From: Shigella phage A2
Strand: one strand, 5' to 3'
Sequence record: OP197928
Length of the DNA: 64,000 nt
Shown piece after piece: positions 16,815-64,000 of the stretch (position 1 is its first letter; each line of letters opens with the position of its first letter). The notes under the pieces are model-generated. The model was not told the origin of the DNA and searched no databases. It saw only the letters and a program-made list of their open reading frames with translations. Position numbers and translations under genes: made by a program.

Positions 16815-17015
16815 ATGGTACAAAAATTAATGGCACTTGTTAATGCCATAAAAGGTAATAAAAAACGTATAGCTTTTACTATTTCTGCTATGGTAGGAAT
16901 TTTACTCTGGAACTTTATTTTATCACCAATTGCAATTGCGCATGGTGTTAATATTCCAGTAGTTACTCTTGATACATTCGTAGATCTAGCATTTGCTTTA
17001 GTTGGGTTAATTTAA
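16815..17015 (+). CDS. small hydrophobic (2-TM) protein, 66 aa, plus strand
   Basis: AAGGAGG 6 nt before ATG; lies in the 56-61 intergenic gap not covered by any minus-strand ORF. Confidence 0.45.
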   Translation: MVQKLMALVNAIKGNKKRIAFTISAMVGILLWNFILSPIAIAHGVNIPVVTLDTFVDLAFALVGLI

Positions 17016-18040
17016 ATCTTGGCATATTTAGATAGCCGCATTTTAGCCATTAACCCCTGGGCAATATTATTTTTCATATATTCCATAATTTGTTCAGGGG
17101 TTGCACCTTCCTTTCTAATCATATCATTGACATCTTTTGATTTCCAGGGAGATTTATCCCAAAACATAACCCTTTCTCCTGCATCAACTAATTTAGTCAT
17201 TCGTTTGATAGTGTCAGGGTGACGAGGTTCATTATCTAAAACCCACACTCGTCTATCTTTAAATGGAACAACTTCTAGGTCTAATTGACCACCCGTAATA
17301 GCTATACCATTTTCAATAAAAAGTGAATCTATAGGTCCTTCTAGAACATATACATCACCATCTTTAACTCGTTCGACTCCATATATTTTTGTTGCCTCAG
17401 GATAAGCTTTAATGGTGATATATTTTTGAGGAGCATCTTTCTTTAATGCACGTCCTTGAAAAGACTCAGCTTTTCCATTAGCATTATAAATTGGAATAAC
17501 AAGACGAGGCTCAGAAATTTCCTTTTTGTATGTTCCCGGTGCTATGCTATTAACTAATTTAGGCCATTCAGTTGTAAACCAAAGATATTTCCATTTATCC
17601 TTTGGAATACAACGAGCTTTTACATATTTTATAATTGGATGGTCTTCCGCCAGTTTATCTAATCTAACACATGACGGAAGAGATTTAATTATTTTCTTCT
17701 CAAGTTGTTTAGGAAGTTCTTTAGGTTTTTCTACTGGACGACTTTTACCTTTTTCTTTTCTTATTTCAAAGATATACTCACGATATAAATCAGGTTCAAA
17801 CTCCTTTAAATATATTCCGATTGGTGCATGATAGTTACAGTTATAACAATGAATATTTCCTTCATTATTATCACCATAATACCATCCACGGGCTTTATTC
17901 TGGTCGGTTTTTGAATCTCCACAAACAGGGCATCTAAAACGTAATTTAAAAGTTGAACTATTATTTACTTGTGTGAATTTAGGTAAATGAGCCAATGCAC
18001 GGTATGCAAACTCATTATCAATCCAAGGTATTGATGACAT
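17012..18040 (-). CDS. 61: DNA primase gp61, 342 aa
   Basis: N-terminal zinc ribbon CPVCGDS...CYNC; TOPRIM-like core; 342 aa as T4 gp61. Confidence 0.9.
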   Translation of the reverse strand: MSSIPWIDNEFAYRALAHLPKFTQVNNSSTFKLRFRCPVCGDSKTDQNKARGWYYGDNNEGNIHCYNCNYHAPIGIYLKEFEPDLYREYIFEIRKEKGKSRPVEKPKELPKQLEKKIIKSLPSCVRLDKLAEDHPIIKYVKARCIPKDKWKYLWFTTEWPKLVNSIAPGTYKKEISEPRLVIPIYNANGKAESFQGRALKKDAPQKYITIKAYPEATKIYGVERVKDGDVYVLEGPIDSLFIENGIAITGGQLDLEVVPFKDRRVWVLDNEPRHPDTIKRMTKLVDAGERVMFWDKSPWKSKDVNDMIRKEGATPEQIMEYMKNNIAQGLMAKMRLSKYAKI

Positions 18041-18042
18041 TT

Positions 18043-18207
18043 TTACTCTTCTTTTTCTTTAGATTCCTCTTTCTTCTTTTTAGGAATCTGTTCAGGGCCT
18101 TTATTTACTACAGCACCTGATGTTGTTCCAGTAGAGATATTTTCAGGATTACCACCTGAATCTCCAGCAACCATATCTTCTTTAATAAATTCTTTATATG
18201 TTTTCAT
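18043..18207 (-). CDS. small protein with internal-protein-type capsid targeting sequence (MKTYKEFIKE), 54 aa; not in ORF track
   Basis: ATG 18205-18207 with AGAGGT SD; N-terminus matches CTS consensus MKTYQEFIAE; Gly/Lys/Glu-rich remainder. Confidence 0.5.
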   Translation of the reverse strand: MKTYKEFIKEDMVAGDSGGNPENISTGTTSGAVVNKGPEQIPKKKKEESKEKEE

Positions 18208-18208
18208 A

Positions 18209-18565
18209 TTAACCTCTATTCATAAAAGCATTAAAAATTTGGTCATCAATCGATGGAATAGCAACTTTTTCTGCATCATTTAACAAATCATTAATTTCAT
18301 CAGATAGCATAACACATGTATCTTTATTTCCTGTAATTGTTACTGCGCAATTACGAACATTTTCTTTATTAAATTTTAGGTTAATATTTTCGTAATGAAA
18401 ATCCTTTAATGCTGAATATATTTTTAAAATAAAATTGTCTTTTACTACAATAAACCCAACCTCACTATTAAAACGTGGTTCATGGAAACTGTAATAAACC
18501 TTTTCATCTATAAAATCGTATGAAATTTTTTCCATTTTTAAATATGAAAATTCAGAACTATACAT
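18209..18565 (-). CDS. hypothetical protein (61.1 position), 118 aa
   Basis: minus-strand ORF. Confidence 0.5.
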   Translation of the reverse strand: MYSSEFSYLKMEKISYDFIDEKVYYSFHEPRFNSEVGFIVVKDNFILKIYSALKDFHYENINLKFNKENVRNCAVTITGNKDTCVMLSDEINDLLNDAEKVAIPSIDDQIFNAFMNRG

Positions 18566-18577
18566 ATCAACCTCTAA

Positions 18578-18871
18578 TTACTCACCTACCACTTCAGCGA
18601 TGATATTTTTGTTATTAAAGTTTTTATCGCAATACAGAACATAATTATACTGCATTACACCACCAGACTTAAGCTGTTTTTGTACTTCAGCTTTCATTTC
18701 AGGACGATCACGCTCAACGATATTCATAATATCCGCTTCAATTTGAGTTTCAACTTCAGTCTGATCTGCAGTCATAGACCATTCACACAAATCTTTATCA
18801 TAACCTGCCATAGCAGGCTGAGCAGCACAAGAAGCCAAAGTAAAAATTGTAGCAAAAATAAATTTTTTCAT
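18578..18871 (-). CDS. sp: periplasmic protein, probable Spackle (Sp, superinfection exclusion), 97 aa
   Basis: signal peptide MKKFIFATIFTLASCAAQPAMA; 97 aa; in the 61.x cluster as T4 sp. Confidence 0.55.
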   Translation of the reverse strand: MKKFIFATIFTLASCAAQPAMAGYDKDLCEWSMTADQTEVETQIEADIMNIVERDRPEMKAEVQKQLKSGGVMQYNYVLYCDKNFNNKNIIAEVVGE

Positions 18872-18931: not shown

Positions 18932-19189
18932 CTATTTTAAAACTTCTGCATAATCACATGTTACAAACTGTTTCTCTAGCTTAACGATCTTACGAAAATG
19001 CCTTTTACACTGACGAATCTGCCTCTTCGTAGGACGTACAACAAACTTAATAAATTCCACTCGACCAAATGGAGGACTTTCTTCTGCTGGAATATCTAGC
19101 ACCAATTCCCACGTATCTGCAATAAGTGCTTTGAATTGAGTATTTTTCCTGGCGTTATACGGAGTAGGTTTAAATAAAACAATATGCAT
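18932..19189 (-). CDS. hypothetical protein (61.4 position), 85 aa
   Basis: minus-strand ORF. Confidence 0.45.
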   Translation of the reverse strand: MHIVLFKPTPYNARKNTQFKALIADTWELVLDIPAEESPPFGRVEFIKFVVRPTKRQIRQCKRHFRKIVKLEKQFVTCDYAEVLK

Positions 19190-19190
19190 A

Positions 19191-19373
19191 TTATCCTCGG
19201 CAATCTACTTCACATACTTTCTTGTCATCAATGAAAGCTTTAACTAATGCTTTATTAACTTCAGCATATTGAGTAGTAGCCCATTGAACGTCATCTTTCA
19301 TCATTGTGGTTTCTTTAGTAAACATGCTTTCATTCTTAAACCACCCCATAAAAACTACCTTTACCAATTCCAT
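19191..19373 (-). CDS. dmd: Dmd antitoxin (inhibitor of RnlA/LsoA), 60 aa
   Basis: 60 aa, MELVKVVFMGWF... immediately upstream of gene 41 position; own early promoter. Confidence 0.65.
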   Translation of the reverse strand: MELVKVVFMGWFKNESMFTKETTMMKDDVQWATTQYAEVNKALVKAFIDDKKVCEVDCRG

Positions 19374-19403
19374 AACAATCTCCTCATTTAACCAACAAGA
19401 CTA

Positions 19404-19433
19404 CTATACCATAGTCTCGTCAGCTTGTAAACT
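19404..19433 (-). promoter_or_regulatory. early promoter upstream of dmd
   Basis: reverse complement GTTTACaagctgacgagactatggTATAGT. Confidence 0.55.
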
Positions 19434-62039: not shown

Positions 62040-62513
62040 TTATTTGAACGATTTAACGTACTGAATAGAACCCTTACTATTCACAAAGGCAATTTTACCA
62101 TTTTTATTATACATGGTAGCAGTACGCTGATAACCATAGGTTTGTTTACCAGATTGATAACCAACTAATGCAAAATTATCTTCACCCATTTTATTCTGTT
62201 TAGCGCGAATGCGTTCATGACCATGTGCCATAAGAACCTTAGCATCACCAGTTGCAATGGATCGACGAGTTTTTTCATCTTCAACTGCATTAACAAAGTC
62301 GTCAAATGAATCAAATTTAGCATGAGATTTATTATACAGTTTTCCATCTACTGCATAATTATATCCTTGTACATCCATCTCAACTTCTGTACCATCATCC
62401 AATACAGCAGTGATTTTTTGACCTTTTTTAAATTTCAAAAGATCAGTAAAAGATTCAGCAATAATTTGAGAATTAATAGCTGCTTCAGTAATAAATTCTT
62501 GATATGTTTTCAT
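62040..62513 (-). CDS. putative head internal protein with capsid targeting sequence, 157 aa
   Basis: N-terminus MKTYQEFITE (CTS consensus); AAGGAAA SD. Confidence 0.6.
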   Translation of the reverse strand: MKTYQEFITEAAINSQIIAESFTDLLKFKKGQKITAVLDDGTEVEMDVQGYNYAVDGKLYNKSHAKFDSFDDFVNAVEDEKTRRSIATGDAKVLMAHGHERIRAKQNKMGEDNFALVGYQSGKQTYGYQRTATMYNKNGKIAFVNSKGSIQYVKSFK

Positions 62514-62529
62514 GTGTTTCCTTTAATTT

Positions 62530-62847
62530 TTATTCTTTAGGGAAGTTTTTAGAATATGCATCATAAAGCTTATTTCCAATACGGCGGAAAACTCTAGCCG
62601 CAAAACGATTTTCTGGGTTTTTAATCATGATTTGCATCATATAAGTACCCGCGTCAGAAAGAGCTTCTTCATAGTACCCGTTAATTTCTTTAAGAGTCCT
62701 ACGTTTACCGCCAGGACCATCAACAGTGATTTTCCATTTACCTGTAGAAGTGCGACTTGGCGGCTCAACTTGTTCAATCCAGATATAACCGCCTTCTACA
62801 CGTTGTCCTGCGGCAGATTCTGCAATAAATTCTTTATACGTTTTCAT
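62530..62847 (-). CDS. putative head internal protein with capsid targeting sequence, 105 aa
   Basis: N-terminus MKTYKEFIAE (CTS consensus). Confidence 0.6.
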   Translation of the reverse strand: MKTYKEFIAESAAGQRVEGGYIWIEQVEPPSRTSTGKWKITVDGPGGKRRTLKEINGYYEEALSDAGTYMMQIMIKNPENRFAARVFRRIGNKLYDAYSKNFPKE

Positions 62848-62856
62848 ATGTTTCCT

Positions 62857-63273
62857 TTAAATGTAAATATTTTTGCCGTAATACTTGTACCAGTGTGGCT
62901 TCATTAAAATTTTTTCATCGAGTCGTTGTTGACTCAATTTAATAGCTGATTTGCATGGATTATAATCATTTTTCCATTCTGCTGGAATATCACTGATGTC
63001 AGGAACTTCAGTATCTTTTATACTAAACCCACGTTTTAAGCATTCCGTTATAATGTCTGATTGACGCTTTCGCAAAAATTCTAACTTATCGTAAAAGAAC
63101 GTAACATGACCAGAACCTAAAATAAACTCGGAAGATATTTTAAAATCTTTAACCCGCTTACCATTTGCCACGTGTTTACGAACTATACCAAAAACACGTG
63201 GCAATTCACGGTATTCTGCGATTAAATGCTGATCAGCAAGTTCAGATACTAAAGTCAAATTAATACGAGTCAT
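62857..63273 (-). CDS. denV: endonuclease V (pyrimidine dimer DNA glycosylase) DenV, 138 aa
   Basis: [17 protein letters not shown]...YRELPRVFG; 138 aa. Confidence 0.9.
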
Positions 63274-63298
63274 TTTATCCCTCCAAGTAACTGTGAAT

Positions 63299-63328
63299 AT
63301 ACTATCACAGTTCTAGGAGAAAGTAAAC
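63299..63328 (-). promoter_or_regulatory. early promoter upstream of denV
   Basis: reverse complement GTTTACtttctcctagaactgtgaTAGTAT. Confidence 0.5.
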
Positions 63329-63332
63329 AACT

Positions 63333-64000
<668 letters not shown>

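What the first reader, a model, noticed from the sequence alone, without database searches (positions are those of the whole stretch)
18043..18207. Unannotated 54-aa ORF carrying an internal-protein capsid-targeting sequence, in the 61.x anti-host cluster
Between gene 61 and the 61.1-position ORF is a gap with no ORF in the supplied track. It holds an SD-preceded ORF translating to MKTYKEFIKEDMVAGDSGGNPENISTGTTSGAVVNKGPEQIPKKKKEESKEKEE. The first 10 residues match the capsid targeting sequence of T4 internal proteins (MKTYQEFIAE), which directs packaging into the prohead and is removed by the prohead protease. The remainder is Gly/Lys/Glu-rich and probably disordered. Injected CTS proteins are a known route for anti-restriction functions (T4 IPI* against GmrSD). 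It sits beside sp and dmd in a locus dense in host-takeover genes. I do not recall a CTS protein at this position in T4.
Basis: partly seen in the sequence, partly recalled or inferred. Interest (0 to 1): 0.6.

Follow-up and report, generated by a model that had tools for sequence, protein, structure and literature searches.

The report
T4 gene 61.1: capsid-protein mimic peptide
The 54-residue ORF is the already annotated but uncharacterised T4 gene 61.1, and it turns out to be a free-standing copy of the major capsid protein's maturation-cleavage site and 'N-fist' behind an internal-protein-type targeting leader, so it is most likely a small, dispensable, protease-processed head peptide.

Summary
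The ORF is real (window 18043..18207, minus strand; GAGG 5 nt before the ATG). It is not new: it is T4 gene 61.1 (NP_049649, 52/54 identical), found in about 1,400 phage records. Its first 10 residues match the internal-protein capsid targeting sequence (8/10 to the canonical sequence, 9/10 to this genome's own ipII-like gene).

The rest is not generic low complexity. Residues 2-42 are homologous, without gaps, to gp23 residues about 55-97. That stretch covers the gp21 cleavage site (E65|A66, in register with E10|D11) and the 25-residue N-fist of mature gp23*. Support: BLASTP 1e-8; hhalign 97%, E 3e-11; reciprocal PHROG hit; gp23 is the only PDB hit.

All 50 family representatives keep a gp21-type Φ-x-Glu site before this core. 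Distant T4-like phages carry a 135-165 aa long form, near the primase gene. The long form was detected in purified phiR1-RT particles (9 peptides, 62% coverage). T4 61.1 is early-transcribed and dispensable in two genome-wide screens. dN/dS is about 0.1.

Best reading: an accessory, prohead-associated, gp21-processed peptide. An anti-restriction role is untested. Interest is moderate.

The parts
18043..18207 (-). Gene 61.1: 54 codons plus the TAA stop (18043..18045).
   Evidence: ORF list and sequence. 52/54 identical to T4 gp61.1. Full-length match to phrog_1823, E 7e-34. dN/dS 0.16 overall.
18213..18216 (-). Shine-Dalgarno GAGG, 5 nt upstream of the ATG, inside the end of the upstream adfA-like ORF.
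   Evidence: Read directly from the sequence.
18178..18207 (-). Leader, residues 1-10 (MKTYKEFIKE): CTS-type, ending in the gp21-type site I-K-E|D. It aligns with gp23 56-65 (AQAFGSFLTE).
   Evidence: gp21 specificity I/LxE from PMC12991175. dN/dS 0.12. AF2 helix at residues 4-13.
18100..18177 (-). N-fist-like core, residues 11-36 (DMVAGDSGGNPENISTGTTSGAVVNK), equivalent to gp23* residues 66-91.
   Evidence: BLASTP E 1e-8. hhalign 97.2%, E 3e-11. gp23 hits phrog_1823 at E 4.6e-10. The only PDB hits are gp23 chains, E 1.2e-5. N-fist defined as residues 66-91 in PMC7136217.
18046..18099 (-). Residues 37-54: GPEQIP (equivalent to the start of the gp23 N-arm), then the Lys-rich and acidic tail KKKKEESKEKEE.
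   Evidence: hhalign and PHROG alignments run to gp23 residues 97-101. A basic cluster is conserved family-wide. The tail is less constrained, dN/dS 0.31.
17012..18040 (-). Gene 61 (DNA primase). Its ATG lies 2 nt after the 61.1 stop. This is the conserved downstream neighbour of the family.
   Evidence: Primase lies immediately downstream in VH7D, DP45, CC2, MM02, phiR1-RT and RB69, and two small ORFs away in RB49 and Miro; spacing varies from 2 to 142 nt.
19403..19431 (-). Early-promoter-like site (TTTACA-17-TATAGT with TG) upstream of dmd. It is the probable start of the dmd-tifA-sp-adfA'-61.1-61 transcription unit.
   Evidence: Promoter scan; no terminator-like site was found between here and gene 61. 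The T4 61.1 transcript is classed early. The dmd-tifA early promoter is described in PMC9391042.

Best explanation
Gene 61.1 encodes a small accessory head-associated peptide. It descends from a duplication of the part of the major capsid gene that spans the end of the propeptide, the gp21 cleavage site and the N-fist.

Proposed mechanism. Step 1 (shown): it is transcribed early from the dmd promoter unit and translated from its own SD. Step 2 (inferred): its leader is an IP-type CTS that also mimics gp23 56-65. This leader and the following gp23-like segment engage the prohead scaffolding core in the way the gp23 N-terminal region does, so the peptide is built into proheads. Step 3 (inferred from the conserved I/L-x-E site, which is in register with gp23 E65|A66): the gp21 protease cuts after Glu10 and releases a 44-residue peptide, DMVAGDSGG...KEKEE. 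Step 4 (inferred; supported only by the phiR1-RT long-form proteomics): the processed peptide stays with the particle. Step 5 (speculative): it is disordered alone, so it would order only on a partner. That partner would most plausibly be the gp23* surfaces that normally hold an N-fist, or DNA via the Lys cluster. The result would be a dispensable stabilising or co-injected component, comparable to Soc, the internal proteins and internal peptides II and VII, not an essential assembly factor.
For: Homology to gp23 55-97, ungapped and in register with the maturation cut: BLASTP 16/37, E 1e-8; hhalign 97.2%, E 3e-11, and 97.5%, E 8.5e-12 for the long form; reciprocal PHROG hits at E 4.6e-10 and 5.6e-8; gp23 chains are the only PDB hits.

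All 50 representatives (50% identity level) keep a Glu 3-6 residues before the GD core. The P3 residue is hydrophobic in 41 of 50, and L or I in 29. This matches the gp21 I/LxE specificity.

The leader is 9/10 identical to this genome's own ipII-like CTS. Leader and core are under purifying selection (0.12 and 0.09).

The gp23 66-105 region lies inside the unexpanded prohead, probably on the scaffold (PMC9546572).

The long-form homologue Gp036 was detected in purified phiR1-RT particles with 9 unique peptides and 62% coverage. It ranks with true structural proteins and was re-annotated as structural by the authors.

T4 61.1 is dispensable, as the ip, soc and hoc genes are known to be (general knowledge). 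There is no autonomous fold.
Against: No direct evidence exists that T4-type gp61.1 is in proheads or virions, or that it is cleaved. The protein was not detected in a T4 infected-cell proteome.

There is no late promoter near the gene, whereas two TATAAATA motifs precede the e-denV-ip block.

The phiR1-RT particle list also contains carry-over proteins (gp32, lysozyme, DNA polymerase), as its authors note.

The leader is less conserved than true CTSs in other genera. The ancestral long form has a 105-aa helical N-domain of unknown fold instead of a CTS.

The published high-resolution T4 capsid papers I searched contain none of the terms 'unassigned', 'extra density' or 'unidentified'.

Conserved placement next to the primase gene is not explained by a head role.
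Confidence: 0.45

Rival explanations
1. Cytoplasmic mimic or decoy. gp61.1 is never packaged. Made early, it acts in the cytoplasm as a soluble copy of the gp23 N-terminal segment. It would occupy whatever recognises that segment: the GroEL/gp31 folding machinery, stray gp21 protease activity (as a competing substrate that blunts host sensors of phage protease such as the CBASS CdnG activation loop), or a host immune sensor of the capsid protein.
For: The transcript is early and there is no late promoter. The gene lies in the dmd/tifA/adfA anti-toxin island. It is dispensable on laboratory hosts, like other anti-defence genes. The gp23 N-terminus targets fusion proteins to GroEL (PMC3012670). 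A CBASS CD-NTase is activated when gp21 cuts an LPE loop (PMC12991175). gp61.1 is a disordered peptide carrying an optimal gp21 site.
Against: Conservation across Vibrio, Aeromonas, Acinetobacter, Pseudomonas and Sinorhizobium T4-like phages is unlike host-specific counter-defence genes. The long form was found in purified particles. The segment copied stops exactly before the Gol region that Lit senses (gp23 residues about 93-122, from my own recall of the literature). No binding partner was tested here.
Confidence: 0.25
2. One reading: a CTS-packaged protein that is injected with the DNA and inhibits a restriction or defence system, like IPI* against GmrSD.
For: CTS-type leader. CTS proteins are a proven anti-restriction route: IPI* (PMC3012670) and Bas37_0260 against McrBC (bioRxiv 10.1101/2025.11.20.689424). 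Anti-defence neighbourhood. Non-essential.
Against: The payload is a 44-residue disordered copy of a capsid segment, not a folded inhibitor. It is broadly conserved and syntenic, unlike the hypervariable ip cassettes. HIDEN-SEQ's one conditional comparison listed for 61.1 was not significant (log2FC 1.23, p 0.22). There is no late promoter.
Confidence: 0.1
3. Replisome accessory factor. The family works with the primase or helicase, for example through its Lys-rich tail on DNA. The resemblance to gp23 would then be an evolutionary relic.
For: The gene lies between helicase gene 41 and primase gene 61 in every genus examined, directly upstream of the primase in most. Expression is early. A basic cluster is conserved.
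Against: The conserved core is precisely the capsid N-fist plus a protease site, and it is under strong selection. The long form was detected in particles. The head chaperone gene 40 also lies in this replication cluster, so position is weak evidence. Knock-down and insertions cause no fitness cost, whereas gene 61 scores 'intermediate'.
Confidence: 0.1
4. The peptide has no function of its own. The ORF serves only to couple translation into gene 61, whose ATG lies 2 nt after the 61.1 stop.
For: The 2-nt stop-start spacing in the window and in T4.
Against: Amino-acid sequence is conserved with dN/dS about 0.1 across genera. Spacing to the primase gene varies from 2 to 142 nt, and two ORFs intervene in RB49 and Miro. 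There is no significant RNA structure at the junction (z -0.34). Transposon insertions in 61.1 are fully tolerated.
Confidence: 0.03

Closest known systems
T4 internal proteins IPI, IPII and IPIII, and other CTS-bearing proteins (e.g. Bas37_0260)
   Same: The N-terminal decapeptide MKTYxEFIxE ends in a gp21 I/LxE site. The gene is non-essential. Members are small and Lys-rich. This genome's own ipII/ipIII-like genes share 27 of the first 30 nucleotides with 61.1.
   Different: 61.1 is conserved and syntenic next to the primase gene, not in a hypervariable ip cassette. It has no late promoter. Its payload is a copy of a capsid-protein segment. Its leader drifts in other genera, and the ancestral long form lacks it. 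Packaging and cleavage are unproven.
Major capsid protein gp23, residues about 55-101 (end of the propeptide, E65|A66 cleavage site, N-fist 66-91, start of the N-arm)
   Same: Significant ungapped homology with the cleavage sites in register. The shared motif is [FY]xxF[LI]xE|xx[VI][AG]GDxGxNxxNI[AS]xGxT[ST]GAVxxxGP. Both are disordered until bound.
   Different: gp61.1 is a stand-alone peptide with no HK97-fold body. After GP it diverges into a Lys/Glu tail instead of the N-arm. It evolves faster than the almost invariant gp23 segment and shows no lineage-specific co-variation with it.
Prohead core peptides from gp67 and gp68, and internal peptides II and VII
   Same: Small, charged head-core components processed by gp21, with fragments retained in the head.
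   Different: Genes 67 and 68 are late, lie in the head gene cluster, and are essential in HIDEN-SEQ. 61.1 is early, lies in the replication cluster, and is dispensable.
Soc (small outer capsid protein)
   Same: A dispensable small capsid accessory whose binding site is built partly by the N-fist. It is conceptually a non-essential cement.
   Different: Soc is a folded late protein that binds the outside of expanded capsids. There is no sequence relation to gp61.1.

Membership tests
T4 gp61.1 family (PHROG 1823; long form PHROG 2086) | Full-length sequence match to the family profile, and orthologous position upstream of primase gene 61. | tested here: met
   phrog_1823 at E 7e-34 over residues 1-54. 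52/54 identical to T4 NP_049649 at the same map position.
CTS-bearing internal head proteins | N-terminal decapeptide matching MKTYQEFIAE. | tested here: met
   8/10 to the canonical sequence and 9/10 to the window's own ipII-like gene. These are the only three such ORFs in the window. Weak profile hit to phrog_5341 'internal virion protein', E 0.076.
CTS-bearing internal head proteins | A gp21 cleavage site (I/L-x-E) at the end of the CTS. | tested here: met
   I8-K9-E10|D11. The site is conserved in 50 of 50 family representatives. Specificity taken from PMC12991175.
CTS-bearing internal head proteins | Physical incorporation into the prohead core or virion, and removal of the CTS in vivo. 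| not testable with these tools
   Only indirect evidence: the long-form homologue Gp036 was found in purified phiR1-RT particles (9 peptides, 62% coverage). T4 gp61.1 was not detected in an infected-cell proteome.
CTS-bearing internal head proteins | Late (or early plus late) expression from a nearby late promoter, and location in the variable ip loci. | tested here: not met
   There is no TATAAATA near 61.1, while two lie upstream of the e-denV-ip block. The locus is the conserved 41-61 replication cluster.
CTS-bearing internal head proteins | CTS held constant within a genome across its internal proteins. | tested here: inconclusive
   Met in this window. Not met in JS98, where five proteins start MKTYxEF[IL]xE but gp61.1 starts MKSFKEVMNE. 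RB49 showed no IP-type ORFs in the 60 kb scanned.
gp23 N-fist / major capsid protein N-terminal region | Sequence homology to gp23 residues 66-91 with the cleavage site in register. | tested here: met
gp23 N-fist / major capsid protein N-terminal region | Being part of an HK97-fold capsid protein. | tested here: not met
   It is a 54-aa stand-alone ORF, and the long form's N-domain is helical with no capsid-fold match. Database labels such as 'major capsid protein' for this gene are therefore over-annotations.
Anti-toxin / anti-defence island genes (dmd, tifA, adfA) | Demonstrated inhibition of a host defence system. | not tested
   Only co-location. HIDEN-SEQ's one conditional comparison listed for 61.1 was not significant.

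The most novel reading that the evidence does not exclude
gp61.1 is a trans-acting N-fist: a free copy of the capsid protein's inter-capsomer latch. It could plug N-fist sockets that lack a cis N-fist (around the gp24 vertices and the portal). Or it could serve as a molecular decoy of the capsid protein's cleavage-site region for host sensors of capsid protein or of prohead-protease activity. A corollary is that the internal-protein CTS is itself a mimic of the last residues of the gp23 propeptide ([FY]xxF[LI]xE), which would identify how the CTS finds the scaffold.
Probability: 0.2. Interest if true: 0.75.

Novelty: new variant of a known kind. Interest (0 to 1): 0.5.

Why it matters
Gene 61.1 is one of the small T4 genes that has had no function assigned since the genome was sequenced, yet it is conserved across the T4-like family (Straboviridae).

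Recognising it as CTS-type leader, then gp21 site, then N-fist copy gives it a concrete, cheap-to-test hypothesis. It adds a candidate component to one of the best-studied virus capsids. It also links three motifs that have been treated separately: the internal-protein CTS, the gp23 maturation site and the gp24 propeptide. That link could explain how the CTS recognises the scaffolding core, which matters for T4 protein-packaging and vaccine platforms that rely on the CTS.

It also flags a widespread mis-annotation of this gene as 'major capsid protein'.

Tried and rejected
1. Co-variation between gp61.1 and the cognate gp23 N-fist in T4-type, phiR1-RT, RB49 and DP45. gp23 is nearly invariant, and an insertion in the phiR1-RT gp61.1 core is not mirrored in its gp23. 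There is no co-variation signal.

2. Co-variation of the gp61.1 leader with the same phage's internal-protein CTS. RB49 has no IP-type ORFs in 44-104 kb; only the gp24 propeptide resembles the leader. In JS98 the leader has drifted from the CTS.

3. Remnants of the long-form N-domain upstream of short forms. tblastn extended in frame, but the translations contain stop codons and are unconvincing. This was dropped.

4. Fold of the long-form N-domain. The model is confident (pLDDT 77-92 for residues 10-70), but there is no PDB match. BFVD matches to 387-913 aa proteins could not be identified, because the last homologue search listed only close relatives. P0054-type fusions are absent from cultured phages.

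5. Pfam gave nothing for either form.

6. RNA structure at the 61.1/61 junction is not significant.

7. More virion proteomes. The fPS-2, fHyAci03 and fHy-Eco03 papers hold no usable data for this family.

8. Literature searches for gp61.1, P39228, NP_049649 and T4p034 found no functional study.

9. The Gol/Lit decoy idea was rejected. The homology ends at gp23 residues about 97-101 and its strong part ends at residue 93, so it does not cover the Gol region (about 93-122, from memory).

Full report
**Observation**

A GAGG Shine-Dalgarno lies at 18213..18216, 5 nt before the ATG. The stop codon lies 2 nt before the ATG of primase gene 61 (17012..18040).

The surrounding genes, all on the minus strand, are:
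- uvsX
- gene 40
- gene 41
- dmd (19191..19373)
- 61.4/tifA (18932..19189)
- sp (18578..18871)
- a 118-aa ORF (18209..18565)
- this ORF
- gene 61

This is the T4 order.

**Identity**

The ORF is not new. T4 annotates gene 61.1 (NC_000866 18966..19130, NP_049649, 'gp61.1 hypothetical protein') at the same place. Its product, MKTFKEFIKEDMVAGDSGGNPENISIGTTSGAVVNKGPEQIPKKKKEESKEKEE, is 52/54 identical to the window protein.

tblastn finds the peptide in 1,432 phage records, including Klebsiella, Aeromonas, Acinetobacter and Vibrio T4-like phages. It is a full-length member of phrog_1823. Pfam has nothing.

It shows 35% identity over 103 aa (E 5e-10), and the last 14 residues are identical.

**The CTS resemblance is real**

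The first ten residues, MKTYKEFIKE, differ at two positions from the canonical MKTYQEFIAE. They differ at one position from the CTS of this genome's own ipII-like gene (MKTYKEFIAE, 62530..62847) and at two from its ipIII-like gene (MKTYQEFITE, 62040..62513). These three are the only ORFs in any frame of the window that begin MKT[YF].

The first 30 nucleotides are 27/30 identical between 61.1 and each ip-like gene, but the upstream regions differ.

JS98 has a natural CTS with Lys at position 9 (MKTYQEFIKE). The leader ends in I-K-E|D, a canonical site for the gp21 prohead protease. gp21 cuts after Glu in I/LxE motifs (PMC12991175).

**The new finding: the rest is a copy of a capsid-protein segment**

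Some records and UniRef label this gene 'major capsid (domain-containing) protein'. Following that lead gave four results:
- BLASTP of gp61.1 against a T4-type gp23 gives an ungapped alignment of residues 2-38 with gp23 57-93 (16/37 identical, E 1e-8).
- The reverse test holds. The gp23 N-terminal 132 residues hit phrog_1823 at E 4.6e-10 (gp23 59-101) and the long-form family phrog_2086 at E 5.6e-8.
- Profile-profile comparison gives 97.2% probability (E 3e-11; gp61.1 1-42 against gp23 55-97) and 97.5% (E 8.5e-12) for the long form.
- A profile search of all PDB sequences returns only T4 gp23 chains (E 1.2e-5).

The alignment puts gp61.1 E10|D11 in register with the gp23 maturation cut E65|A66. 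It puts residues 11-36 on gp23* 66-91.

That stretch is exactly the 'N-fist' (PMC7136217). The N-fist is a 25-residue element that contacts four neighbouring subunits and helps build the Soc site (PMC9958956). The gp23 66-105 region is disordered and lies inside the unexpanded prohead, probably on the scaffolding core. It is externalised on expansion, and head-length mutations map to it (PMC9546572).

**Family anatomy**

A profile search of 1.84 billion representatives finds 50 clusters: 22 short forms (50-90 aa) and 28 long forms (about 120-250 aa).

Long forms carry a conserved helical N-domain of about 105 residues (AlphaFold pLDDT 77-92 for residues 10-70). This domain has no PDB fold match. 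The C-terminal core is predicted disordered.

Long forms occur in Vibrio VH7D, Acinetobacter DP45, Aeromonas CC2, Mosigvirus MM02, Yersinia phiR1-RT and Klebsiella Miro, and reach Pseudomonas and Sinorhizobium phages. They lie directly upstream of the primase gene, except in Miro, where two small ORFs intervene.

All 50 representatives have a Glu 3-6 residues before the GD core. The P3 residue is hydrophobic in 41 and is L or I in 29. So the family-wide invariant is a gp21-type site, then an N-fist-like core, then GP, then a basic cluster. The IP-type leader is a feature of T4-type and some other short forms. It replaces the N-domain.

Codon analysis of 13 short-form genes gives dN/dS of 0.12 (leader), 0.09 (core) and 0.31 (tail). 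The window protein alone has no autonomous fold (pLDDT 59.5, pTM 0.18, helix at residues 4-13).

**Expression and experimental data**

There is no late promoter (TATAAATA) near 61.1. The window has four, and two of them lie just upstream of the e-denV-ip block.

An early-promoter-like site lies upstream of dmd at 19431..19403, and no terminator-like site lies between it and gene 61.

In T4, the 61.1 transcript is early and the protein was not detected in infected cells. ipII and ipIII transcripts are also classed early (PMC9697503, Table S2). If gp61.1 is cut after E10, its only good tryptic peptide becomes semi-tryptic, so non-detection carries little weight (inference).

The long-form homologue Gp036 of phiR1-RT was found in purified particles with 9 unique peptides and 61.9% coverage. 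It ranked among true structural proteins, and the authors re-annotated it as structural. They also caution that abundant non-structural proteins carry over (PMC6893735, Tables S3/S4).

T4 61.1 is dispensable:
- CRISPRi-ART score -0.84, 'Not Fit' (PMC11879866).
- 13 of 13 insertion sites hit, 'Non-essential' in HIDEN-SEQ, where genes 67 and 68 are essential and 61 is intermediate (bioRxiv 10.1101/2025.11.20.689424).

**Interpretation**

The best-supported reading is an accessory, prohead-associated, gp21-processed peptide derived from the capsid gene's N-terminal segment. I give it about 0.45.

Shown: the homology, the conserved cleavage-type site, the CTS-type leader, purifying selection, dispensability, and particle association of one long-form homologue.

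Inferred: targeting to the scaffold, cleavage after Glu10, and retention in T4-type virions.

Speculative: what the mature 44-mer does. It could occupy N-fist sockets, contact DNA, or be co-injected.

The rivals are:
- A cytoplasmic mimic or decoy of the gp23 N-terminus acting on GroEL/gp31, on gp21 or CBASS-type protease sensing, or on capsid sensors (0.25).
- A replisome accessory factor, suggested by conserved placement near the primase gene (0.1).
- A mere translational-coupling ORF (0.03). This is contradicted by the selection pattern, the variable spacing, and tolerated insertions.

**Tests that weakened the simple CTS reading**

- In JS98, five proteins keep MKTYxEF[IL]xE, while gp61.1 has drifted to MKSFKEVMNE.
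- RB49's leader, MIGFKQFVEE, has no IP counterpart in the 60 kb scanned.
- gp23 N-fists are almost invariant and show no co-variation with gp61.1.

**Comparison and novelty**

The gene itself is known and annotated. I found no functional study in the searchable literature.

It works most like the CTS/gp21-processed internal proteins and core peptides. It fails their expression and locus criteria, and its payload is unlike theirs. It is homologous to the gp23 N-terminal region but is not a capsid protein.

I rate it a new variant of a known kind, with moderate interest (0.5). It gives a specific and cheap experimental hypothesis for a conserved orphan gene of the best-studied phage. It also suggests that the CTS, the gp23 propeptide end and the gp24 propeptide are one motif class.

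Noticed in passing
window 18209..18565 (-): The 118-aa ORF at the 61.2/adfA position is a half-size relative of T4 gp61.2 (AdfA, anti-DarT). It shows 35% identity to the C-terminal 100 residues, with an identical last 14 aa (SIDDQIFNAFMNRG). T4 gp61.2 itself looks like an internal duplication. Whether the short version still counters DarTG is unknown.
   Followed up: partly
window 62040..63827 (-): The gene order here is e, denV, a 105-aa CTS protein (phrog_3966, 'unknown function'), then a 157-aa CTS protein (phrog_3155, internal virion protein). T4 has e, ipIII, ipII, denV. So this phage carries a different internal-protein cassette.
   Followed up: partly
window 18178..18207 (-); L002 gp23 residues 56-65; L011 gp24 N-terminus: The internal-protein CTS (YxEFIxE), the last residues of the gp23 propeptide (FGSFLTE) and the gp24 propeptide (MTHIFTELLRE in RB49) share one motif, [FY]xx[FL][LI]xE| followed by the gp21 cut. 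The CTS may be a mimic of the capsid protein's propeptide end. I did not find this stated in the papers searched.
   Followed up: partly
L036 16261..16554 (-) = EF469154 72260..72553: JS98 has an unannotated 97-aa ORF starting MKTYQEFIKE in the ipI locus, between trna.4 and 57B. It is probably an unannotated internal protein.
   Followed up: no
L037 1818..2284 (-) = RB69 NC_004928 17317..17783: In the RB69 reference the long-form 61.1 gene is split by a frameshift into RB69ORF032c (63 aa) and 'gp61.1' (92 aa). The closely related MM02 has an intact 155-aa gene. This is either a genuine disruption or a sequencing error.
   Followed up: partly
proteins P0040, P0054, P0058 (metagenomic); BFVD A0A411BBR2, A0A1B1IT15: Some family members continue past the basic cluster into a second domain that begins with another CTS-like motif (..FKQFVE.LEADK). 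BFVD shows 387-913 aa viral proteins that contain a long-form-like region. Their identity could not be established, and a fusion partner might reveal function.
   Followed up: partly
public annotations (e.g. Klebsiella phage Miro CPT_Miro30; KP185; UniRef names): Many records annotate the gp61.1 family as 'major capsid protein'. This is an over-annotation that comes from the N-fist homology.
   Followed up: yes
window, whole: There are only 4 TATAAATA late-promoter motifs in 64 kb, against 10.5 expected from shuffles. This is consistent with the window being almost entirely early/middle genes.
   Followed up: no
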